Shown here piece by piece: positions 1 to 64,000 of a stretch of DNA of 64,000 nt. Position 1 is the first letter of the stretch. Each line of letters begins with the position of its first letter. Both the position numbers and the translations under genes were made by a program. The notes below the pieces were generated by a model. The model saw only the letters and a list, made by a program, of their open reading frames with translations, was not told the origin of the DNA and did no database searches. This DNA comes from Cyanidioschyzon merolae (Eukaryota). The DNA lies in NCBI GenBank assembly GCA_000091205.1, contig AP006495.2; one strand, 5' to 3'.

Positions 1-2557
1 ATGGACTCCTCACAACGGCTTCGACACACGCCGCAGCATCCGGGTGCATGCTCATGACCTGATGATGGGCAATCGGCCCTGAATCGTCACCCACAAAGTA
101 GATATGCTCCAGGCGGTCTAGTGTGGTCGCACCGTCAGCCCATGCCGCCGCCAGAAGCGACGACAGTGAAGCGTAGCGAGCTATCGGCCGCGATACGATT
201 TCCTCCGTCTCCGTCGCGGGATCATCCATTACGACCAACTCAAACCTGACGGGTTGCTTGGGCGCTCGCTCTACTCGGTTCAAGTCCGAGGCGGTGACCA
301 GAGGCGGGCTCCGTTTGGTCCCGCTCCATACGTGGGAACGGACAGCTTGTACAGTGGTTCCGGTGGCGAGCCGCTCCAGCGAGTATACCAGCTCGCACGG
401 CGTCCAGGTTCGCGAGCGATGTAAACCGGCCCCGAGACCCGTCGACGCACAGCCGCTGTGCTCAAAAGCAGAGCGTGCCAGTCCGAAAAATGGAAAGTCC
501 AAGTCATGCAGATGAAGATCGTACTTGGGGATCAGGAACGGATCCTGCGTCTGCGTGATACCGCGCAGATAGTGTTCGACCATCCGACGACGTGTCCCCG
601 CTGGATAGACCAAAGCTTGGGTTCCATAGATCCGCGAGTGTTCTAAGAACGCGTACGGCCATCCCAGCCGCGGGTCATGCCATTTCTCCGGTACATAGAG
701 CTGCGCAGCGTAGCTCGTATTCGGCGGGAAGGAGTATCTCCGGTTCGGCGCCTGTGCCAAACTGTCCAGATCGTGCTCAATGGAGCGCAGCGTGTGAAGC
801 ATATTCACCCAGGCGTCGTCGGCAGCTTTGACATCATCCTCTAGTAGGACCAGGTCGCGCTCTGGTGATGCAAAAAGATCAAGTCCTCGTAGAGCAGCAT
901 AGTAGTTCACGGTACCGATTGCGTGCCGGCTTTGCTGAATACGCTCGAGCGGCATTGCCCCCGACGTTTCAAGATGATCCCGAAACGCCTCATCCCATCG
1001 ATGAATGTTGATTCTCGTGGGATTGTGGCGGAACACGCGCAGATACTCGTCATCGGGCGGGTAGTTGCTTGCAAACAAGTGCAGTTTGTCGATGAACTCG
1101 TGTTCCGGAGAGAGGCTCGGCATCCCCGCTGCATCAACAGATAAAGCAGCAGCAGAAGCAGCAGCAGCAGTCGGCATGTACACCGGATCGCGCCAAAAGC
1201 TCAGGATCACGGAAGCCACGGTGGCGTACACGCCTCCACAGGTGACGTTCCGCAGTGGGCACGGAAGCAGTTTCCGTTGCGTCTCGGTATCGAGACAGAG
1301 TTCATGGCTCAGCGCTGTGTAGATGCGTTGCCCGTCCCGGTTCCAGACTTGGTGCTGACCATCCGGATCATCATGCTTCGACTCGCACGGCAGCAGGTCT
1401 ACCGTGCGGTCCGCGAGGCTCGTCACCGAGAGACAGAGCGTTCGGTTCTTTCGTTCAACCTTGGTTTCTACATAGTGTCCGGCAAGCGTCTGATGCTGGG
1501 ATGAAACATTTGATGCCGGTGCTGGGTACCGAATCGTTCGGTCTTTCGGATCCACTGGGGGCATGCGCTCCGGCGGAAAGCGAGTTCGCTGGAGATCCTC
1601 AGGCGTGTACCGTGACAGCGGTACATAGCGCCGCACGGTTACCATGCCAATGGTGGATCGATGACGCTCCCGAAACGCCGGTGAGATAGCGGCCAATACA
1701 TCCAGTCGGGGGGCGTCCAGTGCCAGCAACAGCGCTTTCGTGGAGCGCCCAGTTCTCGACTCGAGCCGCACCGTCTGCGCTCCAAGTGGCCAAGGCAACA
1801 CTTCAGGAACCTCCTTGAACGCACTGGGTAAATTTGCGGATGCGACATTGTTCGACCGCTTGTTGCGCAGGCTCTTGGCTCGCAGGCGATCCAGTCGAAG
1901 GAGCGGTGCTTGCAGTTCCAGACGGATCTGACCGGCAGAGAGGGTTCCTTTTTCCCGTTCATCCCAAACGATGCAGTTCTCCAGGCCTAGCACAAGTTGC
2001 CACGTTTTGGTATCGACGCCAAGGCACTCACCGGATCCGACACGCCGCCAGATGCTTTCCTGTGGGCTCGAGCGCAACGAGTGACGCCACAGCTCCAACG
2101 ACTCGTACTCAGAACTCGTTTCAGCAAGTTCCTCGCTTGTGGTCACTTTTTCCTCGTCAGCAGGACAGACTCGCACGTAAACTGGTTGCGGAGCTGCGTT
2201 CGCTGTAGAAGTGTCCGTTTTCCGTACAGCGAAACAGCCTTGAAAGAGCTCCTGCACCTGCCCACGCTTGTCGTGAAAACGAGCAATCACGACTCCCAAG
2301 GAGCCGGTTGTTGGAAGCACCTCTATAAGGTGACCCGTATGACCCGGCCGCACAAGGTTATTCAGTTTTCCCACGACCCGTAGCTTTTCGGGTTCAGTGG
2401 AACCGGGAGAAGCCCGCAGCGGACCTCGCCCAAGCCACCTGCTCAGTAGCAGAACCAGCACCAGTAAAAACCCGCCAGCAAGTAACCGCTTGCGAATTAT
2501 GCCGCGCTTTTTGCGGCACTGACTAAAGCAGCGACGGGAATGAGAACGCAGGTGCAT
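1..2557 (-). CDS. Hypothetical type-II (signal-anchor) membrane protein, at least 852 aa, 3' end beyond window start; possibly a Golgi-type glycosyltransferase-like protein (family not assignable)
   Basis: I translated the minus strand codon by codon from 2557 to 1. ATG at 2557-2555 follows an in-frame TAG, and there are no stops through to position 1. N-terminus is 'MHLRSHSRRCFSQCRKKRGIIRKRLLAGGFLLVLVLLLSRWLG', a basic stretch followed by a hydrophobic signal anchor. The rest reads as protein-like sequence, e.g. 'IHRWDEAFRDHLETSG', 'LLEDDVKAADDAW', 'PEKWHDPRLGWPYAFLEHSRIYG'. The ORF is absent from the supplied ORF track because it has no stop inside the window. Confidence 0.55.
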   Translation of the reverse strand, partial: MHLRSHSRRCFSQCRKKRGIIRKRLLAGGFLLVLVLLLSRWLGRGPLRASPGSTEPEKLRVVGKLNNLVRPGHTGHLIEVLPTTGSLGVVIARFHDKRGQVQELFQGCFAVRKTDTSTANAAPQPVYVRVCPADEEKVTTSEELAETSSEYESLELWRHSLRSSPQESIWRRVGSGECLGVDTKTWQLVLGLENCIVWDEREKGTLSAGQIRLELQAPLLRLDRLRAKSLRNKRSNNVASANLPSAFKEVPEVLPWPLGAQTVRLESRTGRSTKALLLALDAPRLDVLAAISPAFRERHRSTIGMVTVRRYVPLSRYTPEDLQRTRFPPERMPPVDPKDRTIRYPAPASNVSSQHQTLAGHYVETKVERKNRTLCLSVTSLADRTVDLLPCESKHDDPDGQHQVWNRDGQRIYTALSHELCLDTETQRKLLPCPLRNVTCGGVYATVASVILSFWRDPVYMPTAAAASAAALSVDAAGMPSLSPEHEFIDKLHLFASNYPPDDEYLRVFRHNPTRINIHRWDEAFRDHLETSGAMPLERIQQSRHAIGTVNYYAALRGLDLFASPERDLVLLEDDVKAADDAWVNMLHTLRSIEHDLDSLAQAPNRRYSFPPNTSYAAQLYVPEKWHDPRLGWPYAFLEHSRIYGTQALVYPAGTRRRMVEHYLRGITQTQDPFLIPKYDLHLHDLDFPFFGLARSAFEHSGCASTGLGAGLHRSRTWTPCELVYSLERLATGTTVQAVRSHVWSGTKRSPPLVTASDLNRVERAPKQPVRFELVVMDDPATETEEIVSRPIARYASLSSLLAAAWADGATTLDRLEHIYFVGDDSGPIAHHQVMSMHPDAAACVEAVVRSP

Positions 2558-2713
2558 GTTCTGGTGCTAGAGCAAACCCCAACAGGCATTCTAGGCAAGG
2601 CACAAACAATACATCCAGTTCTGGGAGAGTCCTGCGCTGGCGTGGCGCTACGATCGCCGCCATCAGGACGCGTGTCCAAGCTTTTAAATTTCTCTTCTAC
2701 AGCATGTTCCATC
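2558..2713. promoter_or_regulatory. Putative bidirectional promoter / shared 5' intergenic region between the divergent membrane-protein gene and CAP
   Basis: There are only about 157 bp between the two divergent start codons (2557 on minus, 2714 on plus). Confidence 0.3.
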
Positions 2714-4036
2714 ATGACATCCAGTAGCCTCCAGGAGTGGCTTCAGGAACCCTCTAAACGCCTTCAGATCGAAGCAGACACAAACTGCTGCAAGAGCAAA
2801 CCCGAAGTTGCGCTCTTAAACGATGCTGTTGTGAGTACGTCTGCTCTATTGGAGGCTGTAGGCCGGGGCGGCACCACAGGAAGCGAAACGGTCGGAGCTA
2901 CCAGGGCCAAACTGGAGAAGCGTGTTTACTTCCAGATCGCGCAGTGTGCGAGTCTTGGTCCAGACTCGCCCGTAGCGGTCGTTGCGAAAGCACTGCGTTT
3001 TTACGAGGTCGAGGAGTTGGATGCGCTCTTTCAGCGGTGCCTGCAAGAGCTTGCTCGGTTACCGCTCCGCGAAGGGCGCACTCCCGCATACGTGGCGTGC
3101 GTGCGTGACTGGTTAGAGGCGTTACAGTCGTACGCACAACGTTATCGTGAGGGTGCTTGCTCACGACTAGTACCCGAAGACGTATCGACGCCAAACACGC
3201 AACCGGAAACGGCAACTGAGCAGTCGGGGGAGACGCTGTCGTTTGCGGCACCGACGCCGCCACCGACACCAGCGGCTGATGAAGGACAAAGTTCCAGACT
3301 CTCGCTTGAGAAAATGGCGCCTGGTACAGTTTCGACGACAGCTGCGAACAGGGAAGCGCTTCTTTCCCAGATAGAAGCAGCGGGGGACGCGATCACCACC
3401 GTGTTGCGACCGACGCGTGCAGTACCGGCAAAAGCCCCCGCCGCCACGGAACCTGTTCGCTGTGAGCCAGCTCCGCCCGTCACGACGGTACCCACTCAAC
3501 AGAAGTCACATGAGTCAGGCGAGACACCGCTTCTACTCTTCGAGCGCACCGCAAACCGCTGGCGAATTGAACACTTTCGGGCGCTCTCTGCGGAGCCGCT
3601 GCAGGTGTCGATCTGTCACCCCCGCGAAACCGTCTACGTTTACCGATGCGAAAAACAGAGTATCAAAATTAGAAACAAATGCAATACGCTTATGCTGGAC
3701 GCTTGTCGCGACGTGGTGGTGCTTTTCGAGAGTGTTGTTTCAGCTGTCGAGGTTGTCCGATGCAGCAAGTGCAGACTGCACTTTACCGGCTGCGTACCGT
3801 CCATCTCGATCGACAACTGCGATAGCATCGTATTGTACGGAATGCCGGGCCAAGTCATCACATGCTGCGCAACGGCAGTGACGATCGTCGAGCCAGACGG
3901 TGACACCGAGCGGGAGACGCCGATCCCCCAGCAGTTCATCACCCGTCGGCAGAGTGAGGAGGCGGCTGCGGCTGCTCGTACGGAAACGGCGCACCGGTGG
4001 GTCACGGAGCCGCTCAAACATTCGGGCGCTGAATGA
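2714..4036 (+). CDS. CAP: Adenylyl cyclase-associated protein (CAP/Srv2)
   Basis: The N-terminal helical-domain region 'ALRFYEVEELDALFQRCLQELARL' matches CAP. A central Pro-rich tract 'APTPPPTPAADEG' is present. The C-terminal CARP beta-helix region matches CAP: 'LLLFERTANRWRIEHFRA', 'ETVYVYRCEKQSIKIRNKCNTLMLDACRDVVVLFESVVSAVEVVRCSKCRLHFTGCVPSISIDNC', 'ETPIPQQFITR' (compare human CAP1 'LELEGKKWRVENQEN', '[29 protein letters not shown]', 'EFPVPEQFKT'). I chose Met-59 of the 2540 ORF as the start, because the earlier part would overlap the divergent gene's start. Confidence 0.85.
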   Translation: MTSSSLQEWLQEPSKRLQIEADTNCCKSKPEVALLNDAVVSTSALLEAVGRGGTTGSETVGATRAKLEKRVYFQIAQCASLGPDSPVAVVAKALRFYEVEELDALFQRCLQELARLPLREGRTPAYVACVRDWLEALQSYAQRYREGACSRLVPEDVSTPNTQPETATEQSGETLSFAAPTPPPTPAADEGQSSRLSLEKMAPGTVSTTAANREALLSQIEAAGDAITTVLRPTRAVPAKAPAATEPVRCEPAPPVTTVPTQQKSHESGETPLLLFERTANRWRIEHFRALSAEPLQVSICHPRETVYVYRCEKQSIKIRNKCNTLMLDACRDVVVLFESVVSAVEVVRCSKCRLHFTGCVPSISIDNCDSIVLYGMPGQVITCCATAVTIVEPDGDTERETPIPQQFITRRQSEEAAAAARTETAHRWVTEPLKHSGAE

Positions 4037-5801
4037 AACCACGATCAAAGGGGCCCCACAATCGCCCCAGCCACGTACCTTCTGTCTCCTGTACTCGGAG
4101 GCAGGATACTGGTAAAGTGAGGGCTTTTTTCAGCTTCGAGACGTAAGCTCGACGATGAAAGTTATCAAAGTCGTTCTCTTCGATCGCATCCAGAATTTGA
4201 CGGTACATGTCGAGAGATGCCCGAATCGGCAGTCGCGCGCTTGGGTGCAGCTTCGCGATCCCGCACTCCGCAGTTCGATAATAGGCTCGCACGCGAGCGA
4301 TCTGGAACTTTATCAGTTCCTGATATCGATCGTTGACAACGCTGGCGAAGAGTTCATCTTCCGTATAGCCAAAGTAGCGCATTTCTTCTTGAGGTAAGTA
4401 GACGCGTCCGCGGAGTGCATCCTCTCCGACGTCACGGAGGATATTGGTGAGTTGTAAGGCGATACCAAGCGCGAGGGCTGATTCCACGGCCTCGGCTTCG
4501 CTCTTGCAGTGCTCTGGATCGACACCGAGGATGGGCAGCGCCATGAGTCCTACGGTGCCTGCGACTCGGTAGCAATAGAGGTAAAGCTCGTCAAACGTCT
4601 CGTAGCGGGCGCGATCAACGTCCATAAGCATGCCCTGAATCATGTCTCGGAACGGGTCTATGCGGAGGCCGGGATAGTTCCGCACCGTGTCTGCTAGAGC
4701 GAGATCCAGAGCATCCTGCGGATAGCCGGCCCAAACCTGCTCCAACCGGCTCTCCCATTCGCTGAGCTTCTGTCGCAGACTGGCATCACGCTGTCGCACT
4801 CGAGGTCCATCGACGAGGTCATCTGTTCGCCGACACCATACATACACGGCCCAGATGGCATCTCGTTTGCGTTTCGGGAGAAATAGCGTGCCCAGATAAA
4901 ATGTCTTGGCGAAGATGGATGTGATTCGGCCGCATTCTTTGTACGCCTGCTGTAAAAGTCTTTGTCTTCTTCGGTAGAAAGCCACCTGTCGCTCAAAATG
5001 CGATAGACCGATTACTCCAGTGGTCGTGTCCCAGGGAAACACGCGCTTCGGTGTCGTTTGCGGCAGCGTCAGGAAACTGCCGCCCATCGAGGCGTCATTG
5101 GCCAGGAGCGCGTCGGCCGCGTCTAGCCCCTCGTTAGTCGGTGACGACAAGGGAGGCGTTTCCCACGCGCCTGGCTGCTTCGCGAAAACTTCGTCAACGG
5201 TGTCCTGCGCTCGAGATCCTGCAGGTTCGCTAGTACGAAACGAGCGCACCGCTCGTTCAAGAATCCCGTACGGATGAAGAGCTTCACCAGACCAGGTCTT
5301 GGGCGCGCCCCGCGACGCACCGTTCGCAACTGAGTTGCAGTCGTCCGACTGACTCTGGCCCGCGTTTTCCGCTTTAGATGCGTCTCGACCAGCACTGGAA
5401 CGCCATTCCCCTTTGAGCTGCCTAGGATCACTGGTCTGTCCGGAGGACGGCTTCCAGTCACTGTCTCGCGCCGAACGTGCCTCGAGGTGGGCAGTCCACA
5501 CCCGTCGACAGTACATAGTGTGACGCGCCCTCTGAAGCGCCCTCCGACGTCTGGTCGCCTTTTCCACTCGTTGCGTACAGCACCCTTCTTCGACGGGTGA
5601 CGATGACCTTGAAATATGTGGATCCAGGCATAATTGCCACATCTGCAACGCTTTCCGACACCAGAACGGCTCACAGCAGCGGCGGCAGCAGCAGCGGCGG
5701 CAGCAGCAGCAGCAGCAGTAGCGTACGCTTTGGCGAAGCGCACCGGCGCAATCGGCCGTGCGGCACTGGTGGCGGCGTCTGCTTCGCGCATGTCCCTGCA
5801 C
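4014..5801 (-). CDS. PSY: Phytoene synthase (squalene/phytoene synthase family) with long N-terminal extension; true start codon uncertain
   Basis: Motifs of plant-type PSY are present: 'KTFYLGTLFLPKRKRDAIWAVYVWCRRTDDLVDG', 'YLYCYRVAGTVGLMALPILG', 'LGIALQLTNILRDVGEDALRGRVYLPQEE', 'RAYVSKLKKALTLPV'. About 265 aa lie upstream of the catalytic domain (transit peptide and/or mis-called start). The 3' end overlaps the CAP stop by about 23 nt. Confidence 0.85.
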   Translation of the reverse strand: MQGHARSRRRHQCRTADCAGALRQSVRYCCCCCCRRCCCRRCCEPFWCRKALQMWQLCLDPHISRSSSPVEEGCCTQRVEKATRRRRALQRARHTMYCRRVWTAHLEARSARDSDWKPSSGQTSDPRQLKGEWRSSAGRDASKAENAGQSQSDDCNSVANGASRGAPKTWSGEALHPYGILERAVRSFRTSEPAGSRAQDTVDEVFAKQPGAWETPPLSSPTNEGLDAADALLANDASMGGSFLTLPQTTPKRVFPWDTTTGVIGLSHFERQVAFYRRRQRLLQQAYKECGRITSIFAKTFYLGTLFLPKRKRDAIWAVYVWCRRTDDLVDGPRVRQRDASLRQKLSEWESRLEQVWAGYPQDALDLALADTVRNYPGLRIDPFRDMIQGMLMDVDRARYETFDELYLYCYRVAGTVGLMALPILGVDPEHCKSEAEAVESALALGIALQLTNILRDVGEDALRGRVYLPQEEMRYFGYTEDELFASVVNDRYQELIKFQIARVRAYYRTAECGIAKLHPSARLPIRASLDMYRQILDAIEENDFDNFHRRAYVSKLKKALTLPVSCLRVQETEGTWLGRLWGPFDRGFIQRPNV

Positions 5802-7635: not shown

Positions 7636-8742
<1,107 letters not shown>

Positions 8743-9318
8743 CTACGCACTCGCCCCGCGGCGAATGCCGTCCAATCGATGTACGATTTTTTTTCCTGAC
8801 AAAACGTTTACGTGGGCCAGCGTTCTCCAATTGTGCGCATATTTCTTTTCTTTCTTTTTTTGTGCTCTTTTTTCAGTGCGCAGTGAAGTATCCATCAAAC
8901 GCCCTACCTCCATGTTACATTACCTATACTTTTTCTCGGATATTCTGGTCGTTTCATACGTCCAATCGTGTGCGCCTAGTACCTGCCCAAATCATCCGTC
9001 TTTGCGCTTGAACCGCTGGGGCAGATAGTTCATAGAACTAGAACGGTTTTTCTACAGCACAGAGGGCGTCGGCTCGAGGCGTGCTTCACCCGACGTAGAA
9101 TCGGGTCTCGTCGTCAGTTTGTGCTCAGACAGTCTGCGGATGCAGGCTTGCCTTCGCTGCACGACACGCTGGAGAAACTTGGCTGTTCGGATATATCCTG
9201 GGAGCCGCCTCTCTCCTTCGTGACCATGTGTGGGATGCGTTGTTGTCGGTTGGCAACCCGGGTGTAAATCGGCGTACGATGCTGCGGTTGGAAGTACAGT
9301 AGCGGCGGTGAACGCGCC

Positions 9319-11512
9319 TTAGACAAAACGTCTCCAACCGACGTGCAGACGCCTCCACGTCTTTCTCGGCCGGCCACCGAATACTGCTTCCAACTTTTTC
9401 TCACATAATACCACCTTGAGAGGTTGTTCAACAAAATTCCCTCTTGTGAAGTCTGGAGGCCTTGTCTCCAGCACCGCACATCTCCTTGTATTGATAGCGG
9501 CGTTAGAGTCTCTGTTCACAAACTCCATACATTTCTTTCCATCACTGGTTGTACTTACTAACGCAAGCAATCCACGAACTTTCGCTCCCCTTTCCACTTG
9601 CTGTTCCGTCAGCGCACCGTACTTTTTTCTATCCTCAGGGCTCCGCTGACGCTTTTCCATATCGACCCTCTGGAGTGTATAGGACGTTCGGGACTCATCT
9701 ACAGGTATCGTAACGAAACGCCGTGCACACTTCTTGTACGTTCTTGTCGTTGGAGCTGGTGTACACCCTTTTCGGGTCTTCCAGCGTCCTGCTCCATATG
9801 CTACTGCGGGCCTCTAACTCTCATTCTCCTTGAGGGTGCTCAATTGATTGAAAAAGTTGGCGAATGCACGCTGCTTACTACAGTATAGATTCATTCGCAG
9901 ACGAGCCCAGCGGGGCTTTGTATACTCCTCCCACAGCGCCTCCCAATGAGCAACACGAACTTTCACGAATTTCCGAAAAGCTTGAAAGTCTGCTCCGCGG
10001 CTCGTCACCTCGCCCAAAGCTTCTGGGTGATCCTTCATTCCTGCGTTCCACGTGTCAATTTTCTTCCTTGCATTCATGATTCCCGATTCTCAATAGTACC
10101 TTGCTCTCGGGAATCTCAACAGAAGCATATCTTTCTGAAGCAAGTTACCGTCAGTACCATCTTCCGCACGTTTGGGTTTTGCGATAGTTATGATATTTGT
10201 GTTTCAGGGTCCGCGCCAACGATAAAGTCGTTATCCTGCACTTTCTGCAACGCAGGTTCCGCCTCCTCCTTCTCTTCATCCTTCGTCACGTCAACGACAA
10301 GGTCGTTATCCTGCACTTTCTGCGTCGCAGGATCCTCCTCCTTCTCATCTTCATCCTTCGTCACGGGCGATGCCAAAGGCGAACCAGTACGATCTTTCTT
10401 CAACCGCCGATAGTGTACATACACGGCTACTCCATCGGTTTCGATCAACCCAGTGAATACCTTTTTTCTGCTCACTCTCAGACGTTTGGAATCGAAGATA
10501 TTCTTCCAGTGGGTCTCCCGGTTTTCGCCAGTGAAGTCCTCCCTGCTGACATTGACCTCCGGACTGATCTCCCTCATGATGCCGAAAAGGACTCTGGAGT
10601 CGATACTCACAAAAAATGTGAATTGATGGTGCACATTGGAACCACGTTGAAGCGCTTCCCCATTAGGAAAGCCTTCCGTCTCTCCCATTCTTCATTTTTT
10701 TCCTCACTCAGCTTCATCTCCGGTTTGACTTCGAGCTTTCGGTCCAGAAACACGAAACAGCGCAGGACGAGGCGATTGTATCTTTCCTTATCTTTTTTCA
10801 ACTCTGTGATCTTGTCTGTTGGATTCGCCAACCCCAGTACCGCACGGTGCTCTCGTATAGCCGCACGGATCGCAGCAGCTTTATTCGTGCTCCTGCGTAA
10901 CGCCTTCTTGTCGACAAATTCGACCTCATCTTCATGCTTGCGATCGTTCGTGATGCCATTGATAATCGCCCATATTCCTTTGCGAGAGATGCCCGGGTAC
11001 AGCGCAAACACGGCGCGTCTCATGAAACGTTCGAGGTTCATTGTCAAATGGTTCTTCAGGTTCGTGATGTACATCATCGCTCCGTGTATGTAAATATTCG
11101 AGTCACCCTTGCATCGAGTACCCTCGAAGCGGAATTCCGTGAGGTTTTCGTGGAGGGTATGCACTAGCACATTTTCGCTCCGCGCTTCCCCTGTACCAAA
11201 GATGAGGTGACAAACAAAGGTCTTCTCGAGGATCTCGTCTGGAATCTCGACTGTTTTGATGTCCGTCACGTCGCGATACATCTCCGTCGCCATATGCATT
11301 AGTCCTGACGACGTCTTTAGAATAGTCTTGGAGTACGAATCGACACGGTTTCTGATGGCGTCTCCCAACTTTTCCTTGTTCGGATCCTTGATATGTTTAA
11401 AAAGAGCGGCTTCCACCACCATCTCGCCGTACTGGCGTCTTTCTTGCGGTCGTTGACGTCGGGCACCCTGCATTTGCTTCTTGGTCGTCTCCTGGTCCTC
11501 TTTGCTCGGCAC
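9319..11512 (-). pseudogene. TnpB/Fanzor-like (RuvC-nuclease, OMEGA-family) gene, near full-length (~730 codons) but disrupted by at least 2 frameshifts and 1 in-frame TAG; copy A of a dispersed repeat family
   Basis: Four consecutive same-strand ORFs cover the region: 10607..11512 (301 aa, K/R-rich N-terminus), 10188..10688 (166 aa, 82-nt overlap in another frame, contains '[13 protein letters not shown]'), 9814..10077 (87 aa), and, after TAG at 9814-9816, an open frame 9319..9813. The 87-aa segment contains 'KKIDTWNAGM', which I align to the TnpB RuvC-II region (ISDra2 'IEDLNVKGM' as I recall it). It also contains 'HWEALWEEYTKPRWA', which I align to the conserved 'SWSEF..LEYKAEWYG' block. 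The downstream part has 'FVTIPVDESRTS' (compare 'VVKIDRFFPSSQTC', with the Zn-finger cysteines mostly lost) and 'KKCMEFVNRDSNAAINTRRC' (the RuvC-III 'DRDxNAAxNI' signature) about 45 aa from the C-terminus. Domain order matches TnpB/Fanzor. Confidence 0.5.
10222..10370. repeat. Tandem repeat, ~75 bp x2, inside the TnpB-like copy A (encodes acidic 25-aa repeats on the minus strand)
   Basis: 'gataaagtcgttatcctgcactttctgcaacgcagg...' is followed by 'gacaaggtcgttatcctgcactttctgcgtcgcagg...'. Confidence 0.8.
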
Positions 11513-12688
11513 TGTTTTTTATCCGCCAGCCGGCGACACTGTGCGTCCGTGGTCCTCCACTTGCATTTCTATGCTTTTATATTTTTGAAAACGGACCCGC
11601 TTCGAACACTTCTGGTATATACACCGAAAAATCACTTGAATATACTTGCTTCAGGCTTGAAATACTATTGGACAGAGATTTATACTTTGCTACGACTTCG
11701 ACGCAAATACATCTTGCCCGATACAGCAACAGTTCAACTAGTGGTCAGGATCGTGTTTCCCTTCAACGTCGAGATGCATGCCGTACCCCATGCATGCTAG
11801 ATATGGAGGTACACGTATCGACAACGCTATAGGAGAAAAAGAAAAGAACGAACCGCTAGCTAGCAACCAGATGACAATTTCTTCCCCCCTATGCTAAACC
11901 TAAAAGGCGGCAAAAAGTTTTCCGTATTTTCGAAAGCTTACCTTCTAGGCAGAAGGTCACGCGTGCCAGCCGGATCTGCTTCGCTAGCGCGTCATGCTCT
12001 TCCCAGTGGTGGGTGCTGAGGCGCGACTTGGGCAACTCGCCCGCAACGCGGTTTACTCTGCCACTCGGAGCGAGTATGCTGTGTCTGGCCGTCGCACTGG
12101 GAGCAATAGTGCCCTAATATATCGCTTCGCGCTTTAATGGGAAGTATGTCTGTCTGCGCGGTTTGCAGGCTCCCGGAATGATAATTTATCCTGATTCCGC
12201 CTCGGATGAACGGTGCCTCGAGGTGGCGCCCCCAGTGGTATAGCAAAGCCTTTCTGTCTCTATGATGCATCTGCACCAGCGGTATACGCGTTACGGCTGG
12301 TGCTCTCTACAGGTTCGACGCACAATGGATTGTAGAAAACGATCAGTACGCCCGAGAAGGAGTCCAGGTTATGGAACCTGGAAGTAAGGGGATCGATGGA
12401 TGCTCCACCGCGCGCTTATACCAGGCGCACAGTCGGGGAACACAGCCCAGAGTCACGGAGCTGTCAATTAGAACAAGGCATCGAACGCGGCCGGCGGCGG
12501 TTGGGCGCGCTCGAAATGCATTTGCATCAACTAGCATGAATGGGGAACGTACGTTTGCCCGTGAAAATCTCGTTACTGGGATAGGATGCTGGTGATCTCG
12601 TAGAGTGCCTTGGAATCCACAAGTGAAATGCTGCGTTATTCACAAAAAAACTATTGTCGTTCTGTTTAGTTTGAGTCTGTGAGCTGGA

Positions 12689-14047
12689 ATGGACGCCCAA
12701 AAGGTGACCGCGTCGGCGCCGTACGCCTCTCGGCTTGATCCGCGCACAGCAGGCGTCTCTTTTCCGGAACAAGGCGATGTACAGAGCCCTGCAGAGAACG
12801 AGGGCTCCGCGGTATGCCCACCGCGCCAGACCTCGCTCGGTACGAAGAGCCTGGGAGCGAATATCTTGTTTGGCGGCTTGGCCGGTGTAACTGGTACCAC
12901 GATAATTTTTCCGCTGTACACACTGAAGACCCACTTGATGACTGATACGGGCTCGCGCGAGTGCAGAGGATCATCGGAGTCTGCGGCTGTTTATAACACA
13001 GCGAGCAAAGCAGAGCCCGTTAGGGGTAACGCGGTCTCAACCGGGACCGCGAATCCAACCAGCAGTACAGGACCCGCCCTGGCTACCGAAGCGGCCAAGC
13101 ATACATCAACGTTAGCCGTTAAGGATACGGCTTGTACAGATAGCCATGCTAAGTTACCAACAGTGGAAGCTGCTGCCCCGGCCAGATCATCCAAAGTCGC
13201 ATCGAACGGGTCCAGAGGCCCAGCTGCCGCTTCGCAAAGCACGCTCGCGTCGACTCCGCGGACGAATGCCTTGAAAGCTGCCTCGCTTTTGAAGCGACGA
13301 CCGCGGCTGGTCGAAACGCTCCAGCAGATTCTTCGCTCTCAGGGAGTACGCGGCCTCTACCGTGGCCTGACGCCGGTACTCATTGGGGTCGCGCCTGAGA
13401 AGGCGATCAAACTTGCCGCGAATGATTTTTTCGTGAGCGAGTTTAAGGAGCGGTCACCGAATCCGCATGGACCCCTATCTGTGAAGCAAGGCATGCTGGC
13501 CGGTGCAGGTGCCGGTCTGTGTCAAGTGATAGCGACCAATCCCATGGAAGTGTTGATGATTACGATGCAGACTCGTGCGGCGCATGGCCATCCGCAACAC
13601 AGCGTCACGGATACGATTCGTATGCTGGGTTTGCGCGGTCTCTACCGTGGGGTCAGCGCCACACTCACAAGAGATATCCCTTTTAGTATGGTCTTTTTCG
13701 GAATGAATACTAGTTTGAAGGAGCGACTTTCACTGCATTACCAAGGGGGTCTGCCGATGCGGATTGTTTTCGGCGTAGGGATCCTGTCAGGTGTGACGGC
13801 AGCTGCGCTCAGCACGCCATTTGATGTTGTGAAAACTCGGATACAGAGCGGCGTTCGGGACAGACATGGTAGATCGTATCATTCGGTAGTGAACACGCTC
13901 GTACGGGTGGTTCGAGAGGAGGGTTTTCGGGCTCTCTGGAGTGGCGCTGTTCCGCGCGTCATGATTGTTGGCCCTTTGTTTGGGATTACGCTACTTTTTT
14001 ATGAACTTCAGCAGAGATTGGCACAGTCGGCACATCAGCGAACTTGA
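12689..14047 (+). CDS. Mitochondrial carrier family (SLC25) protein with ~140-aa low-complexity insertion in the first repeat
   Basis: Three Mito_carr repeats are recognisable: 'LFGGLAGVTGTTIIFPLYTLKTHLM', 'GVRGLYRGLTPVLIGVAPEKAIKLAANDFF', 'GMLAGAGAGLCQVIATNPMEVLMITMQ', 'GLRGLYRGVSATLTRDIPFSMVFFGMN', 'GVGILSGVTAAALSTPFDVVKTRIQ', 'GFRALWSGAVPRVMIVGPLFGITLLFYE'. Confidence 0.85.
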   Translation: MDAQKVTASAPYASRLDPRTAGVSFPEQGDVQSPAENEGSAVCPPRQTSLGTKSLGANILFGGLAGVTGTTIIFPLYTLKTHLMTDTGSRECRGSSESAAVYNTASKAEPVRGNAVSTGTANPTSSTGPALATEAAKHTSTLAVKDTACTDSHAKLPTVEAAAPARSSKVASNGSRGPAAASQSTLASTPRTNALKAASLLKRRPRLVETLQQILRSQGVRGLYRGLTPVLIGVAPEKAIKLAANDFFVSEFKERSPNPHGPLSVKQGMLAGAGAGLCQVIATNPMEVLMITMQTRAAHGHPQHSVTDTIRMLGLRGLYRGVSATLTRDIPFSMVFFGMNTSLKERLSLHYQGGLPMRIVFGVGILSGVTAAALSTPFDVVKTRIQSGVRDRHGRSYHSVVNTLVRVVREEGFRALWSGAVPRVMIVGPLFGITLLFYELQQRLAQSAHQRT

Positions 14048-21747: not shown

Positions 21748-21999
21748 AGGGCCGAGACAATCCCACGAGATTCCTGAGTTAGGGCGTGCTCTCTGGTCCA
21801 GAGACCAATGTTGAACTTGCAGAGACGTTCCCGGAACTGCAACAATACCTGCGTTCTACGAAGCGAAAACGCTTCACGGCCACGGGATCAATGAATACCC
21901 TACGTGCAGATGCCTCCCAGTCGCTTCCGACCGGCCACCTGTTATCGGTTTCAGCTGGTCGTCATGCAACTCGACCCTGAGAGGCTGCTCCACAAAGTT

Positions 22000-22450
22000 G
22001 GATCACGTCAACTCCTCTGGCCTCGTCCTCAACACAATACATAGTCTGACATTGATGTCGGCGTTGACGTCTCGGTTCACGAACTGCATGCGTTTATTGC
22101 CGCTGGCGGAACGCATCAATGCAGGGATTCCTCGAACTCGCGCCCTCTGTGCCACTAAAGTCTCTTCATCGTCCCGTCGGGCTAACATTGCTTCTCGCCT
22201 GTCTCCGCTCTAGTTTTTCTTCTTCTTCGCCGTCAAATGCTCTTCGTCGCTCGATGGTCGGCAGAAAGAGAATTTTCTAGTTCTTTTTTCTCGGTAATCG
22301 GCGACACCTGGCTTCCAGGAACCTCGACTTTTATCCCTAGACCTTTTCCATCATCATTTCATTTCTGCATATGAACGAACTTGGGATCCATCTGCGATCA
22401 ACCGCGAAAAAGCATGTAACAAGACGATCCTGGGAGTGAAATACAAATGA
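22000..22450 (-). mobile_element. TnpB/Fanzor-like repeat family, copy B (short 3'-terminal fragment)
   Basis: 'RREAMLARRDDEETLVAQRARVRGIPALMRSASGNKRMQFVNRDVNADINVRLCIVLRTRPEELT' aligns with copy A 'RQRSPEDRKKYGALTEQQVERGAKVRGLLALVSTTSDGKKCMEFVNRDSNAAINTRRCAVLETRPPDFT'. An in-frame TAG lies just upstream. It sits in the divergent intergenic region between DPH2 and the 2OG-oxygenase gene. The upstream extent is approximate. Confidence 0.45.
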
Positions 22451-26356: not shown

Positions 26357-26416
26357 CGTCACCATCACCGTCACCATCACCGTCACCATCACCGTCACCA
26401 TCACCGTCACCATCAC
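26357..26416. repeat. Hexanucleotide microsatellite (gtcacc/atcacc)n ~x10
   Basis: 'gtcaccatcaccgtcaccatcaccgtcaccatcaccgtcaccatcaccgtcaccatcac'. Confidence 0.9.
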
Positions 26417-28451: not shown

Positions 28452-29830
28452 ATTCTTTATGGAAGTGTGCGCACGGAAGACTGTATCCCTCCTTCAGGTC
28501 AGTCATCATATTGTACGGTGATGCTTGAGGAGCCCTGAAAGACATCGATAGATGCGCGCTGCAGGAAAAGCTGGCATTGTCGATGACTGGGCAATGGTAG
28601 ACAGCGGCCCGTTGATCACCTTACGGAAAGCAAAAGCGACGATAGAAAGCACAACGGCTGTCCCTGTTTCTCAACAGCTTGTTTATGTGGTCGTGAATAC
28701 ACCGGGATACAGTGACAAAAAAGTCCCAGGTTTTGCATGGCCATCTTGCCCCGAAACAGCAACCAAAGAGTTCCCGGAATCTCACTATCCATGTAATGGA
28801 GAGGGAACTCGGTTTGTTTTCCCAGTCAATGAGGCTTGCTTCGGACGAAATGATCGAAGCGTTCATGGGTATTCGAGGTGAAGCGAGCCTGTTGTATGTA
28901 CGATCGAACTCGTAGAGAATGAGAACATCACCATCTGTTCTTGCTGTCGTAGACTGATTCGGCGGCCTCAGTTTCGCTTGTATACATGGCTCGAAGAACA
29001 GAACCCACTTCATCGAATCATTGAAGACCTGTCCCTGACGTCTGGCGACGTCCCTCTACCGGACGACATGGTACTCTACCATTCTCCTGACGTTCGACCT
29101 TCCTCCGATTCTGCCGGGACGTAGCTGCTTTTGATTCCTACGTACTCTCCGTGCTTCAACTCCATCGCAGGAGTAGTTTCTATTGTGAAACGTGTGATGA
29201 TCGCTCCACTGGGCAAATCGATGAAGCATTCAGCACACTGTGACATATCGGCGGCATATCTCGCCTTCTTCCGAAAGTCCTTCACGCTCCGGGGCGGTCG
29301 CCGCGTAGCGGCATAAACAAGTGCGTTCATTTGAAGAAATGAAAAATCCAGGGAAAAGGTATGAACATGGGCGTCGAAGATCCCGGCGAGCCGTCATCAC
29401 CGGATTCGACAACATGAAAACGAAAACATCCTCTTCTGGCGGCCCATCGAGCGAAGGAATGCAGGTGACGAAGATGAAGATGAAAAAAGGGAGATACGCG
29501 TGTAAAGTCGCTTGCCCAACGGGACGACGACGAGACTCTTGCGGCACAGAAGGCACAAGTTCTGGCAATCCTTGCATTGGTTAGTTCACCCAGATGAAAT
29601 AAACGCGTGGATTTCGTGTGCAGAGACTTCAATGCCGCCATTCATATTAGACGATGTGTGGTGCTGAAGACACGACTCGCAGAGCGGACGCGATCCAATA
29701 TTGTGGAGCAGCTTGTCAGGCTCGAAACGCACGAGGAGAAGTTGCAGCCGATAGCAATCGACAGGTCGGCAAAGGCTGCACGGCGTCTTTCCGCCTGTAT
29801 TGATTTACCGTGTGGTTGCGAAACGTCTTT
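28400..29830 (+). mobile_element. TnpB/Fanzor-like repeat family, copy C (~1.4 kb, 5'-truncated, degenerate)
   Basis: DNA-level homology with copy D runs over about 1.4 kb. It starts at 'acgatgcaatgtaccgtatagaac' (copy D 'acgatgtaatgtgttttatagacc') and continues through 'gaggagccctgaaagacatcgatagatgcgcgctgcag', 'ccagtcaatgaggcttgcttcgg...gggtattcgaggtgaagcgagcctgttgtatgtacgatcgaac' and 'tctattgtgaaacgtgtgatgatcgctccactgggc'. It ends with '(M)DFVCRDFNAAIHIRRCVVLKTRLAERTRSNIVEQLV', a RuvC-III-like motif. Upstream, 'YACKVACPTGRRRDSCG' is in a shifted frame. Confidence 0.5.
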
Positions 29831-31443
29831 GCTCCGTTGAGCATGTATTGACGCGTGTGATAAGAGGAGAGATAATGGAAGCGTCGAATCTCCAGTATGT
29901 GGATGACGCTCCCTCAAACAACACAGATTGCCAGCCTGGGCACTCGGTGCGCCGCGTTTCCGAGCCTCTTCGGCACCGTTATCAGGAAAAATGGAACAGG
30001 TCTACAGATCTACTGCAGAGGTATACACTAGAATGAGGGTCTCTTCCCGCTGTCATCGATATCTGTCGTTGTGGACATTACCCGTGACTGCTTCTCATGC
30101 CTGGCTCCGAGCTCCGTATTGAAATACACCGATCTCTCATGTGGATCCAGCCGAATGTTTCGCTGTCAAAGGATGTTCATAGCAGCTTTCATGCCTCGAT
30201 TTCATGGCATCGGGCTGTAGTGAATGCATTACATGCATAGGTAGAAGCTCCGGTCTACACATCGCTTGCCATTGTCACCATCATCATCGTTGTATCCAGG
30301 CTGTGTGCGACGTATACAACGGACACACAGGGCTATGGTCTGGTGTTACCGTATACGCAGCACACCATGCGCTGCGACAGCAAACGTACGGCGGAAACAA
30401 GCGTGAGTCTACCGACTTGTTCAAGGAGCTGCAAAAAGGAAACGACTGAAAATTCCCTTCGTATCGTGGTAGCCTAAGTTGCTGGACGCATTGGAGCGCG
30501 CATGGTTGCTTTCCTGATCCTCGAACAAAAACACGTACTACGAGAGTACGAATATCGATACCGCACGATTGCCATGGATGAATTCAGGACGGCACCCGGG
30601 TAACAAGAGCACAAGTTCGCACCGAGGCCGCCAGATGGAAACAGAGTGAACCGGGGCTCCATGCACGACCACTTGCAACGCAAACTGGCTGAACATGATT
30701 TGGGAACCGATCGTCGGTGAAAATCTTGCGTTTGTCGGATTCCAGCACCAAAAGTGTACCCAAAAGCACTTTCTGCTCTCTGGCTCGGACGCCTCGATCA
30801 ATATCCGATAATGTCTGATGCTTCATGATCGTCCAAGGGCTTCGTGTCCAGCGAACTTTGGACTGGATGTTTTTATTACCAGTCTGAGCATTGTGCGGAA
30901 ACGCTGCATATTTCCGATGGAAAACATCAGTATCTCGAAGAGCGTTCATTGGATTCCCGCGCGGTGCACGGCACCTATATGGTACGGTCACTCATCCGGA
31001 ATCGCTAAAGTGGCATACCGAGACTCCCGCCACCATATTCCTGGTGCATTTTTCGAACGACCATCATAATGCATCTTCCGATATTCTTGAGTATACCAGG
31101 CGACGTAAGCTGCTTTACGACGTATCCCGCCGCACTACGGAAATGCTCACCAGCGTCGATGACAACAACTTGTTGCGGATGCGTGAGCAGCGCTCATCCG
31201 TACTCCTGCTGTGCCACACTTCCAGCGCTCTCAAAACAGCGCTTCCGCACAACACCAGGACGCATCTTCACAACACAAGCACGCGCTGTTCATGATGCGA
31301 GCATCCGCATGTTGCCCTTGCCTTGAACGGCACTCGCGGGTATCGCCCTGAACACTGCGTCTCTAGAGCATGTATTCGCGGAACACATCCCCGCGGAAAC
31401 CGCGCTTGCCATCCTACCACAGCACACCCCGTTTATTCGGATT

Positions 31444-62099: not shown

Positions 62100-63500
62100 A
62101 CGAATTCACGATGTAATGTGTTTTATAGACCGTCCATCATTTGCCCAGAGGATATAGATTCCTCACTTAACGGTACAAGGAGGAATGCATTCGTCCTTTA
62201 GTTCAGTCATACCACGGTACTCTGATGGTTGAGGAGCACTGAACGGAAGACGTAGATGTGCTCTGCGTCAAAAAATGGTATTATCGAAGCTTGCCTGCGG
62301 CCAATGATGGAAAATGACTGGCGAATCCCTACCGGCAAGCGAAAGCGACGATGGTAGCCGCCATAGGCGTCCTTGTTTCTCAACAGCTTGTTCTTTTGGT
62401 CCTGAAAGCACGGGCATCCAGTTGCAAAAAAGAGTCCTATTTCAATCACGGCCATCTTCCACGGAAATAGCGGTGACAGCGTTCCTGTAACGTTGCGATC
62501 CGGATGAAACACAGGGACGTAGGTTTTTGTTTCCAGTCGATGAGAATTTCTTCGGGTGCAACGGTCGGAGTGCGTACGGGTATTCGCGGTGAAGCGAGCC
62601 CGTTGTATGTGAGATCGAACGTGAAGAGATCGACGACACCATCTGTTCTCGACGTGGTAAATTCATTTGACGGCCTCAGTTTGGCTCGTAGAGAAGGCTC
62701 ATCGAATAGCAACAACCACTTTGTCGAATCATTGAAGACTTTTGTCTGACGTCTGACGACGTCTTTCTTTTGGACAAAGTGGTATTCCACCATTCTCCTT
62801 GTGTTCGAGCTTTTGCGAATTCTATGTGGATAGAGCTGCTTTTCATACTTCTGTACGCTCCATGGTTGAATTCCGTTTTAGGATTCATTTCTATTGTGAA
62901 ATATAATGATCGCTCCACTGGGCGGATCGCTGATGCTCTCAGCACACGGTGACACACTGGAAGCATATTTCGCCTTTCTTGCGCAAGTGCTTCTCCCTCC
63001 GGGCAGGTTTCCACGCAAGGGCGTAAAGAAGTAGGTTCATTTTAAAAAAATAATGGATGAATTCGAATGCGCATTTCACAGGGTCGAGACTGAGAGAGCG
63101 AGAAGACAGCAGAGCGCACCGGCGATAGAAACGCACGGAGAGATGACAGAGCACCAAATGATGTCGAGGGCGCGAGTTCGGGCAATTCTTACATTGATGA
63201 GTTCCACCAGCGGGAATAAATGCATAGAGTTCGCGAACCCAGACTTCAATGCCGCCATCAACATCAGACAATATCTGGTGTTGAAGACGAGACCCAGGGA
63301 GCTGACGCGATGTAGCTCTGTGGGGCAGCCTCTCAGGGTCGTACTGCGTCCGAATGAAAAAAGAAATCGATATCAGGAGCTCCGTCAAAATAGACCCGAA
63401 CGCGTCTGCGGGAGAGTATTAATTTACCCCAGAAAGAACAGAAACTATGTCGCTCAACAGAACAAGCGCGCGTCGAGTGGAACAGCGTTATCGCAACGCG
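62100..63500 (+). mobile_element. TnpB/Fanzor-like repeat family, copy D (~1.4 kb, 5'-truncated, degenerate)
   Basis: Collinear DNA homology with copy C. Its coding-strand ORF ends 'LMSSTSGNKCIEFANPDFNAAINIRQYLVLKTRPRELTRCSSVGQPLRVVL' (RuvC-III-like). Upstream, 'PCVRAFANSMW' is homologous to copy A 'CSKQRAFANFFNQL'. It lies just downstream of the transporter gene. Confidence 0.5.
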
Positions 63501-64000
63501 GGAGTCGCAACACTACCATTTCCGTGCATTCGCGTGTCGGAGCACCGTTCGAGTCATATATTCTTGTGGTTTCGCTCGCGCTAGGTGTGAGTCATGAGGT
63601 CCTGCAGTCAGTTAGACTGAGGACTTGAGCGCTCCTTCTTGTGCCCTGGTGACCATAGTTATCACGGGGAGTCGCAGAACCAAAAGCACCAGCAGACTCG
63701 GCGAGTTCGAGGTAAGCGTTTCAAGCTCACAACTCCTGTTGCAGTCGGTATGGACGCCCGGTTCGTTACAGACAGCGATCGTTTACAACCTGTGCGGAAG
63801 CGAGTCTATCGAATTCGCCTCTCTGAAGGGGAACAACTCTGTCTCTGTGGAAAGTACAGCGTTACCATTGCTGGCGCTCAAGGTCCCCTGCGGCAGCGTT
63901 TGTTCTTTAACAGTGCAGAGACAGCACTGAGCATTTGGCAGGACCCGGTGCCTGTCGATGCACCTGCCTGGCAAAGTGCACCGGTCTGGCGGGTGCAACA

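What the first reader, a model, noticed from the sequence alone, without database searches (positions are those of the whole stretch)
9000..9330. Candidate omega-RNA / element right-end region downstream of the TnpB-like copies
In TnpB and Fanzor systems the guide (omegaRNA) scaffold is encoded at and just beyond the 3' end of the nuclease ORF, overlapping the transposon right end. All four copies share about 40 codons after the NAAINI motif ('VL.TRP.E.TR....VEQPL.VVL'). Their flanks are: 9000..9319 on the minus strand for copy A, beyond about 21990 on the minus strand for copy B, 29800..29900 on the plus strand for copy C, and 63360..63600 on the plus strand for copy D. These are where a structured ncRNA and the element boundary would be expected.
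Basis: inference. Interest (0 to 1): 0.5.

Follow-up and report, generated by a model that had tools for sequence, protein, structure and literature searches.

The report
Dead Fanzor right end plus retroelement fragment
The flagged stretch is a junction between the decayed right end of a dead, already catalogued red-algal Fanzor transposon copy (CMe-1A) and a truncated retrotransposon tail, and sequence tests give no positive support for a guide RNA there.

Summary
The four TnpB-like copies are real. Copy A (window 12404..9294, minus strand) is 82-86% identical to the published CMe-1A Fanzor1 consensus of Cyanidioschyzon merolae (Bao & Jurka 2013). B, C and D belong to a second family about 70% diverged from it. 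A predicted structure of an intact relative matches solved Fanzor1 structures (SpuFz, E 6e-17).

About 45 independent family copies from metagenomes place the boundary. Homology to A stops at 9294, 25 nt after the stop codon. Other copies continue about 45 nt through a terminal hairpin to '...GGCGTT', which is where the published consensus ends. In A this tail (9293..~9255) is degenerate or truncated.

The rest of the interval (9263..8786) is the 5'-truncated 3' end of a reverse-transcriptase-encoding retroelement, not Fanzor sequence.

Tests for an omega-RNA gave nothing:
- Rfam: no match.
- RNAalifold: no consensus structure.
- Covariation: equal to shuffles.
- Synonymous-site conservation: no excess.

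The positive signals are weak: a right-end hairpin kept in two alternative registers, and consensus folding at z -2.2.

Copy A is a pseudogene. A family-level omega-RNA remains plausible only by analogy with other Fanzors. The element is known and interest is low.

The parts
9294..12404 (-). Copy A of the CMe-1A Fanzor1 element (consensus positions 66-3135), 82-86% identical to the published consensus
   Evidence: blastn of the Bao & Jurka consensus against the window. Contiguous homology to many metagenomic copies.
9322..11572 (-). Pseudogenised Fanzor1 ORF of copy A (CMe-1 protein residues 1-734). It has two frameshifts, three in-frame stops, a 7-aa deletion in the Zn finger and a Cys-to-Arg change.
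   Evidence: tblastn of the translated consensus ORF gives HSPs in frames -1, -3 and -2. Three-frame translation.
9255..9293 (-). Degenerate or truncated right-end tail of copy A. It corresponds to the last ~34-45 nt of the family (ACCGC..TCGTTCGAC-TTT-..GGCGTT). The 3' arm of the terminal hairpin is lost or overwritten from ~9265.
   Evidence: Alignment of 45 independent 3' ends. Pairwise alignment to the right-end consensus and to the retroelement junction. Hairpin energy -3.4 kcal/mol, z +1.0.
9255..9420 (-). Where an omega-RNA scaffold would lie if the family has one: the last ~100 nt of the ORF plus the ~60-nt tail. This is inference; in this copy it is decayed.
   Evidence: Analogy with SpuFz1 and GtFz1 (PMC10432273). 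Consensus fold z -2.2; window copy z -0.94. No covariation.
8786..9263 (-). 5'-truncated 3' end (~480 bp) of an RT-encoding non-LTR retroelement, ending in an A-rich stretch (GGAAAAAAAATCG)
   Evidence: 83-87% identity to units in L005, L009, L014, L054, L068, L073, L076. In L086 the same sequence follows an RVT_1 ORF and ORF P0208.
12190..12416 (+). Inverted, 68%-identical relative of 8875-9105. It is part of the TE-N2_CMe-like 5' module of copy A, which is why an apparent 231-nt inverted repeat brackets copy A.
   Evidence: blastn E 3e-17. CMe-1A consensus 84-282 also hits 8903-9105 at 76%.
21843..22414 (-). Copy B: remnant of a second, ~70%-diverged Fanzor family. Right end ~21845, with hairpin GAAGCG-TTTT-CGCTTC.
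28472..29850 (+). Copy C: heavily degraded member of the second family. Right end ~29850.
62150..63430 (+). Copy D: heavily degraded member of the second family. Homology to relatives ends ~63427-63430.

Best explanation
Window 9000-9330 is a junction of two dead mobile elements, not a guide-RNA gene.

The upper ~40-75 nt (about 9255-9330, minus strand) hold the stop codon and the decayed right end of copy A. Copy A is a pseudogenised copy of the known Cyanidioschyzon merolae Fanzor1 element CMe-1A.

The lower ~265 nt (9000-9263) are part of a 5'-truncated 3' end of an RT-encoding non-LTR retroelement that abuts the Fanzor right end.

In intact family members the element ends ~60 nt after the stop codon, in a sense-strand hairpin (...CCACTACTGTAC-ACNNNNGGCG-TCGTTCGACTTTCGAACGGCGTT). 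If the family makes an omega-RNA, its scaffold must be this ~60-nt tail plus the last part of the ORF, with the guide read from the flank. That step is inferred by analogy and is not shown here. In copy A it is no longer intact.
For: Shown:
1. Copy A is CMe-1A. The published consensus aligns to 12404..9294 at 82-86%, and the translated consensus aligns over residues 1-734.
2. The protein family is Fanzor1 by fold. The AF2 model has pLDDT 81.6. Foldseek PDB top hits are SpuFz, PpFz and GtFz, with E 6e-17 to 2e-13 and TM 0.72-0.73 on the target for SpuFz.
3. The boundary is placed by many copies. In ~45 independent insertion sites, homology to A ends at 9294. The other copies share a further ~45 nt and then diverge. 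The published consensus ends at the same place...GAAAGGCG.
4. 9263..8786 matches a repeat that in L086 lies downstream of an RVT_1 ORF.
5. Copy A is dead: two frameshifts, three stops and a Zn-finger deletion, and the right-end hairpin is lost.
Against: - The consensus 144-nt 3' region folds somewhat better than shuffles (z -2.2). It includes a 13-bp long-range helix between the ORF sequence CAGUAGUxGGUGGC and the post-stop GCCGCCACUACUG.
- The right-end hairpin is kept in two alternative sequence registers. It is more stable on the sense strand than the antisense strand (-12.1 vs -7.6 kcal/mol, p 3e-9).
- A family-level RNA is therefore not excluded. Decayed copies give little power to detect covariation.
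- No transcript data could be consulted.
- The exact end of A's tail is ambiguous by about 10 nt, between 9255 and 9266.
Confidence: 0.82

Rival explanations
1. Family-level omega-RNA. Active CMe-1A copies transcribe a guide RNA from the last ~100-150 nt of the element (ORF 3' end plus ~60-nt tail) that reads ~15-20 nt into the flank. Window 9255-9420 would then be a decayed relic of that gene. This is compatible with the best explanation but adds a claim of function.
For: - Every Fanzor tested so far binds an RNA from the region abutting the right end; the SpuFz1 scaffold is 75 nt and GtFz1 overlaps 17 codons (PMC10432273; PMC10530073).
- The fold is closest to SpuFz1.
- The consensus folds at z -2.2 with a long-range helix.
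- The terminal hairpin is maintained in two registers, with G.U pairs allowed only on the sense strand.
- Some environmental copies keep near-intact ORFs, such as P0001 at 752 aa.
Against: - No Rfam match.
- RNAalifold finds no consensus structure.
- Covariation is not above shuffles: 0.131 vs 0.129, with 159 of 500 shuffles as high.
- No excess conservation at synonymous sites in the last 100-250 nt (p 0.58-0.94), and the tail against the 5'UTR gives p 0.06.
- The 96-97-nt consensus tails fold at z -1.1 and +0.08.
Confidence: 0.4
2. DNA-level signal only. The conserved tail and terminal hairpin are cis-acting transposition signals, read as single-stranded DNA by an unknown trans-acting transposase (HUH/Y1- or Helitron-like). 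No guide RNA is involved.
For: - The element has no TIRs (Bao & Jurka 2013) and carries hairpins at both ends. The left end starts ATC-GCGCTC-GGT-GAGCGC; the right-end hairpin is.
- The second family (B, C, D) also ends in a short hairpin, with compensatory variants such as GTGAAAC..GTTTAC, GCGAA..TTTGC and CGAAAG..CTTTCG.
- The rest of the putative scaffold shows no RNA-type covariation.
Against: - No HUH or RepHel transposase was found associated with the element.
- The ends do not fit the canonical Helitron 5'-TC...CTRR-3'.
- In TnpB systems the same hairpins serve both roles, so this does not exclude an RNA.
- The sense/antisense asymmetry may simply reflect G+T-rich composition.
Confidence: 0.3
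3. The whole 9000-9319 interval is a long 3' non-coding extension of copy A that encodes its omega-RNA. The comparison is ApmFNuc, where conservation runs 200 nt past the ORF.
For: - Some Fanzor fRNAs do extend ~200 nt beyond the ORF (PMC10530073).
- An inverted repeat (8875-9105 against 12416-12190) superficially looks like TIRs bracketing copy A.
Against: - None of ~45 other copies has this sequence after its right end.
- The sequence is a retroelement 3' end. It is found elsewhere alone or upstream of Fanzor cores, in either orientation.
- The inverted repeat is explained by a related segment inside the TE-N2-like 5' module of the consensus.
- No Rfam hit.
- The region 9230-9420 folds at z -0.94.
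Confidence: 0.03

Closest known systems
CMe-1A Fanzor1 element of Cyanidioschyzon merolae (Bao & Jurka 2013, Mobile DNA 4:12; Repbase consensus 3169 bp)
   Same: - Copy A aligns to consensus 66-3135 at 82-86%, and its protein to CMe-1 residues 1-734.
- The family properties match the published description: many copies ~80% identical to the consensus, about 3 kb, no TIRs, and a 5' ~635 bp separate module (TE-N2_CMe).
- The right end determined here from ~45 copies coincides with the consensus 3' end.
   Different: - Copy A lacks a recognisable last ~34 nt and is a pseudogene.
- B, C and D are only ~70% identical to the consensus over ~150-280 nt and represent a second, older family not described in that paper's text.
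SpuFz1 / GtFz1 omega-RNAs (Saito et al. 2023, PDB 8GKH)
   Same: - The protein fold is the same (Foldseek E 1e-15 to 6e-17).
- The expected RNA position is the same: between the ORF end and the right end, with the guide in the flank.
- The tail length (~60 nt) is comparable with the 75-nt SpuFz1 scaffold, and the small ORF overlap resembles GtFz1.
   Different: - SpuFz1 elements have inverted repeats, and the omega-RNA spans the 3' IR. CMe-1A has no TIRs and ends in a hairpin.
- No RNA has been demonstrated for CMe-1A.
- No structural covariation was detectable here.
IS200/IS605 TnpB right end with overlapping omega-RNA
   Same: - Hairpin-bearing ends without TIRs.
- The non-coding tail is short, so any scaffold must overlap the nuclease ORF 3' end, as in ISDra2.
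   Different: - No TnpA (Y1) gene in the element.
- Eukaryotic host.
- No conserved target motif was seen next to the left end. The left-end breakpoint is joined to at least four different upstream modules.
5'-truncated non-LTR (LINE-like) retrotransposon copies
   Same: For 8786-9263:
- Common 3' end with an A-rich terminus.
- Variable 5' truncation points among copies.
- Lies downstream of an RVT_1 ORF in a longer copy (L086).
   Different: - The clade was not determined.
- No target-site duplication was checked.
- Several copies share nearly the same 5' boundary (L068 position 3825-3833), so a discrete ~1.1-kb derivative may also exist.

Membership tests
CMe-1A (Fanzor1 element, C. merolae) | Nucleotide similarity to the published family consensus over most of its length | tested here: met
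   Consensus 66-3135 aligns to window 12404..9294 at 82-86%.
Fanzor/TnpB superfamily | Motif D-X(125-275)-[TS][TS]-X-X-Zn finger-X(5-50)-RD (Bao & Jurka 2013) | tested here: inconclusive
   The family consensus carries GADPG ... DEFRTSYTHHELGC..C ... NRDFNAAINI. Copy A keeps GADPE, DESRTS and NRDSNAAIN but has lost the THHELGC segment and a Cys. No Pfam model passes its threshold; the best is PF07282 at E 0.23. PDB sequence searches found nothing.
Fanzor1 | Three-dimensional fold matching solved Fanzor1 nucleases | tested here: met
   AF2 model of P0001 has pLDDT 81.6 and pTM 0.79. Foldseek against PDB gives SpuFz 9cez/9ceu/8gkh at E 6e-17 to 1e-15 with TM(target) 0.72-0.73, then PpFz and GtFz. 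The next hits are Cas12 at E>=3e-3.
omega-RNA / fRNA | Encoded at the 3' end of the nuclease ORF and abutting the transposon right end | tested here: inconclusive
   The position exists only at ~9255-9420. The right end was mapped at 9294 to ~9255. Positions 9000-9254 lie outside the element.
omega-RNA / fRNA | Non-coding sequence conserved among copies up to the right end, followed by a variable (guide) flank | tested here: met
   A ~58-62-nt post-stop tail is shared by ~45 independent copies and the flanks then diverge. Its conservation (0.82) is not significantly above neutral parts of the element (0.80; p 0.06).
omega-RNA / fRNA | Conserved secondary structure supported by covariation | tested here: not met
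   RNAalifold gives -0.11 kcal/mol with 6 pairs. The count of structure pairs gives covariation 0.131 against 0.129 in shuffles, with 159 of 500 shuffles as high. Only the terminal hairpin shows alternative-register maintenance.
omega-RNA / fRNA | Match to a curated RNA family | tested here: not met
   Rfam 15 gives no hit at gathering score on the whole window and none at E<=1 on 8700-9700.
omega-RNA / fRNA | Discrete transcript bound by the nuclease and directing TAM-dependent cleavage | not testable with these tools
   There is no expression or biochemical data. The literature searches found no paper on a red-algal Fanzor RNA.
Non-LTR retrotransposon fragment (for 8786-9263) | Collinear with the 3' region downstream of a reverse-transcriptase ORF; common 3' end with variable 5' truncation | tested here: met
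   L086 carries an RVT_1 ORF at 1664-2581, then P0208 at 2749-3951, and 3915-4228 equals window 9263..8948 at 84.6%. Copies start at L068 positions 3825, 3833, 4491, 4669 and 4769 and all end at ~4959. The fragment's own ORF has no Pfam hit.
Helitron / Helitron2 | 5'-TC ... CTRR-3' ends with a 3' subterminal hairpin, or ATIRs plus hairpins at both ends; RepHel in autonomous partners | tested here: inconclusive
   Hairpins are present at both ends. The termini (ATCGCGC... / ...GGCGTT) do not fit TC/CTRR. RepHel was not searched for.

The most novel reading that the evidence does not exclude
The CMe-1A family of a thermo-acidophilic red alga still has near-intact Fanzor1 genes in hot-spring populations (for example the 752-aa P0001). 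It would encode a compact omega-RNA whose scaffold is the last ~60 nt of the ORF plus the ~60-nt tail. That scaffold would be held by a 13-bp long-range helix (CAGUAGUxGGUGGC with GCCGCCACUACUG) and a terminal hairpin. This would be a TIR-less Fanzor1 with a TnpB-like, ORF-overlapping guide. Window 9255-9420 would be a fossil of it.
Probability: 0.35. Interest if true: 0.35.

Novelty: already known. Interest (0 to 1): 0.15.

Why it matters
It matters little for this locus. The element, its copy number, its lack of TIRs and its 3' end were published in 2013, and the copy here is a pseudogene with a damaged right end.

Three results are useful:
- The 'flank' is identified as a retroelement fragment.
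- Sequence-only tests give no support for a structured RNA.

If someone wanted a thermotolerant Fanzor1, the intact environmental copies would be the place to look, together with the ~120-nt 3' region defined here. This window would not.

Tried and rejected
1. Terminal inverted repeats. A 231-nt inverted repeat (8875-9105 against 12416-12190, 68%, E 3e-17) brackets copy A. I rejected it as TIRs for three reasons. Other copies lack it downstream. The downstream arm is a retroelement 3' end found alone or upstream of cores in either orientation. The upstream arm lies inside the TE-N2-like 5' module of the consensus.

2. Pfam and PDB sequence searches for TnpB/Fanzor domains gave nothing significant. 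Fold comparison was needed to settle the family.

3. RNAalifold (in Python and through the tool) on 45 aligned 3' ends gave no consensus structure.

4. The MFE structure of the consensus, projected onto the alignment, kept 81.9% of cells paired against 81.4% in shuffles, and covariation equalled the shuffles.

5. The synonymous-site conservation test for an overlapping RNA was not significant.

6. A search for solo right ends or 'ghost' guide loci in the window found only copy A's own site (chance expectation 0.5).

7. A Pfam scan of the retroelement-fragment ORF gave no hit. Its identity was obtained from context in L086.

8. No tRNA and no Rfam family was found anywhere in the window.
Full report
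**Context.** The window is a nearly intron-less eukaryotic sequence of about 55% G+C. A GAPDH gene lies at 7636-8658(-) and a mitochondrial-carrier-like gene at 12689-14047(+). The exact GAPDH protein occurs on JGI metagenome contigs that are 98.6% identical to window 8600-11660. Together with the transposon identification below, this points to Cyanidioschyzon merolae or a very close relative. That assignment is an inference.

**Checking the observation.** tblastn with copy A's C-terminal ORF finds four copies: 9322-9660(-), 21895-22164(-), 29553-29789(+) and 63101-63346(+), at 46-53% identity and E 3e-15 to 2e-25. Only A and D keep a literal NAAIN. All four share roughly 55-60 codons after that motif.
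- A four-way DNA alignment loses homology at about the ORF end.
- Only B and C continue, for ~55 nt more.
- The shared C-terminal tail is therefore real, but conserved sequence beyond the ORFs is short.

**What the copies are.** The supplement of Bao & Jurka 2013 (PMC3627910) holds the 3169-bp CMe-1A consensus and the CMe-1 protein of C. merolae. The paper describes about 150 copies, each ~80% identical to the consensus. The element is about 3 kb, has no TIRs, and its 5' 635 bp form a separate element, TE-N2_CMe.
- The consensus aligns to window 12404..9294 (positions 66-3135) at 82-86%.
- The translated consensus aligns to copy A over residues 1-734 in three different frames. There are three in-frame stops, a 7-residue deletion (THHELGC) and a Cys-to-Arg change in the Zn-finger region. 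Copy A is a pseudogene.
- B, C and D match the consensus only at ~70% over 150-280 nt. They are more similar to each other and to other degraded copies in L039, L057, L076/77, L084, L021, L075 and L023. They belong to a second, older family.

**Is the protein a Fanzor?** Pfam and PDB sequence searches gave nothing significant. An AlphaFold2 model of the near-intact relative P0001 reached pLDDT 81.6 and pTM 0.79. Its best PDB matches are Spizellomyces punctatus Fanzor (E 6e-17 to 1e-15, TM 0.72-0.73 on the target), then the Parasitella and Guillardia Fanzors. Cas12 proteins follow far behind. The family is a Fanzor1 by fold.

**Where the element ends.** A scan of metagenome contigs returned 80 loci carrying relatives.
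- In almost all of them, homology to copy A on the 3' side stops at window 9294. That is 25 nt after the stop codon at 9319-9321.
- I aligned 45 3' ends whose flanks differ, and so represent independent insertions. Those copies continue past the equivalent of 9294 for about 45 nt...CCACTACTGTAC / AC-N8-CG / TCGTTCGACTTTCGAACGGCGTT.
- A second variant reads ...GCAACGTTTTTCTTTTGAAAGGCGTT.
- After this point the flanks diverge. The published consensus ends at the same place...GAAAGGCG.
- Copy A reads TTCCAACCGCAGCATCGTACGCCGATTTACACCCGGGTT after 9294. This aligns to the right-end consensus only with insertions and many mismatches.
- From ~9265 onward it matches the neighbouring repeat better. A's right end is degenerate or truncated, ending somewhere between 9266 and 9255.
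- For the second family, homology among relatives ends at about 21845 (B), 29850 (C) and 63430 (D).

**What the rest of the interval is.** Window 9263..8786 (minus strand) is 83-87% identical to a repeat found in many loci. That repeat is a unit of ~1135 bp (L068 3825-4959). Its 3' end is common to all copies, and its 5' starts vary: positions 3825, 3833, 4491, 4669 and 4769.
- Its ORF carries a Cys/His motif (HCPCC..ETLTYLGLQCPRW) but has no Pfam hit.
- A longer protein relative, P0208, sits on contig L086 directly downstream of an ORF with a reverse-transcriptase domain (RVT_1).
- L086 3915-4228 equals window 9263..8948 at 84.6%.
- The stretch is therefore the 5'-truncated 3' end of an RT-encoding non-LTR retroelement, ending in an A-rich run.
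- This also explains the 231-nt inverted repeat I first took for TIRs (8875-9105 against 12416-12190, 68%). A related segment lies, inverted, inside the TE-N2-like 5' module of CMe-1A (consensus 84-282).

**Tests for a structured RNA.**
- Rfam 15 gives no hit at gathering thresholds on the whole window and none at E<=1 on 8700-9700.
- The 144-nt family consensus 3' region folds at -55.6 kcal/mol, z -2.2. The fold has a 13-bp long-range helix between CAGUAGUxGGUGGC in the ORF and GCCGCCACUACUG after the stop, plus the terminal hairpin.
- Copy A's own region 9230-9420 gives z -0.94.
- The tails give z -1.1 and +0.08 for the two consensus versions, +0.55 for A, +0.26 for B, -1.15 for C and -0.62 for D.
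- RNAalifold on the 45-sequence alignment finds essentially no consensus structure (-0.11 kcal/mol).
- Projecting the consensus MFE structure onto the alignment keeps 81.9% of cells paired against 81.4% in shuffles. The covariation score is 0.131 against 0.129, with 159 of 500 shuffles as high.
- Across the element, codon positions 1 and 2 are clearly more conserved than position 3 (about 0.89-0.93 against 0.80). Selection on the protein is therefore visible in these copies.
- Third positions in the last 100-250 nt are not more conserved than elsewhere (p 0.58-0.94). The post-stop tail (0.82) is not significantly above the 5' UTR (0.80; p 0.06).

**The positive signals.** Both concern the terminal hairpin.
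- It is present in most copies. It occurs in two versions that differ at seven positions and pair in different registers: CGTCGTTCGA-CTT-TCGAACGGCG and AACGTTTTTC-TTTT-GAAAGGCGTT. Both give ten pairs, counting G.U.
- It is more stable on the sense than on the antisense strand (-12.1 against -7.6 kcal/mol, p 3e-9). The G+T-rich composition may contribute to that asymmetry.
- The second family also ends in a short hairpin with apparently compensatory variants.
- Such a hairpin fits equally well a single-stranded-DNA transposition signal.

[quoted passage not shown] In GtFz1 it overlaps 17 codons (PMC10432273). Other Fanzor RNAs also derive from the non-coding region abutting the right end (PMC10530073). 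By analogy, a CMe-1A guide RNA would occupy the ~60-nt tail and the last part of the ORF, about 9255-9420 in copy A. No paper in the searched library reports a red-algal Fanzor RNA.

**Verdict.**
- Most of the interval is a retroelement fragment.
- The Fanzor copy is dead and its right end is damaged.
- None of the sequence-based tests supports a structured RNA.
- The element is already catalogued.

A family-level omega-RNA remains a plausible but untested inference, which I put at about 0.35-0.4.

Noticed in passing
L068 3825-4959 with 4959 onward; also L009, L046-48, L054/56, L064/65, L073, L076/77 (window equivalent 8786-9263): In at least five loci the retroelement 3' end abuts the Fanzor core left end (ATCGCGCTCGGTGAGCGC...) at exactly the same junction, while the retroelement part is truncated at different 5' points. 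This pattern is what 3' transduction, or amplification of a chimera, would give.
   Followed up: partly
Left-end breakpoint, window ~11829 (consensus ~643); loci: The Fanzor 'core' begins at one sharp breakpoint carrying a 6-bp terminal hairpin (GCGCTC-GGT-GAGCGC). It is joined to at least four different upstream modules, each shared by several copies: TE-N2-like, retroelement 3' end, a 'GGACACGTGTCC...GGTGCACGC' module and a 'TTTAAGATAG...CTAGTTTGC' module. No common target motif is visible.
   Followed up: partly
window 10214-10363 (-), inside the copy A ORF: A 75-bp tandem repeat (87% identical units) encodes an acidic 25-residue unit (..[18 protein letters not shown]..). Copy number varies from 1 to about 5 among family members. 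In the AF2 model it falls in a disordered linker (P0001 residues 386-470, pLDDT<50).
   Followed up: partly
window 21843-22414, 28472-29850, 62150-63430: Copies B, C and D belong to a second Fanzor-like family about 70% diverged from CMe-1A. It has its own tail (..GTATT.ATTTAC..GAAACGTTT..CGTTGAAC) and a short terminal hairpin. All members seen are heavily degraded.
   Followed up: partly
window 8659-12688: Copy A and the retroelement fragment fill the whole intergenic region between two divergently transcribed host genes (GAPDH and a mitochondrial-carrier-like gene). The retroelement-like segments at both edges point towards the host genes' start codons, 128 and 273 nt away.
   Followed up: no
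L001-L004 versus window 8600-11660: The same dead copy A, with its junction to the retroelement fragment, is present at 98.5-98.8% identity in four hot-spring metagenome samples. The insertion and its decay therefore predate the divergence of these populations.
   Followed up: no
window 26100-26450: Long (GAT GGT / Asp-Gly, or His-rich in the other strand) simple-repeat ORFs are visible in the ORF listing. They are unrelated to the finding.
   Followed up: no
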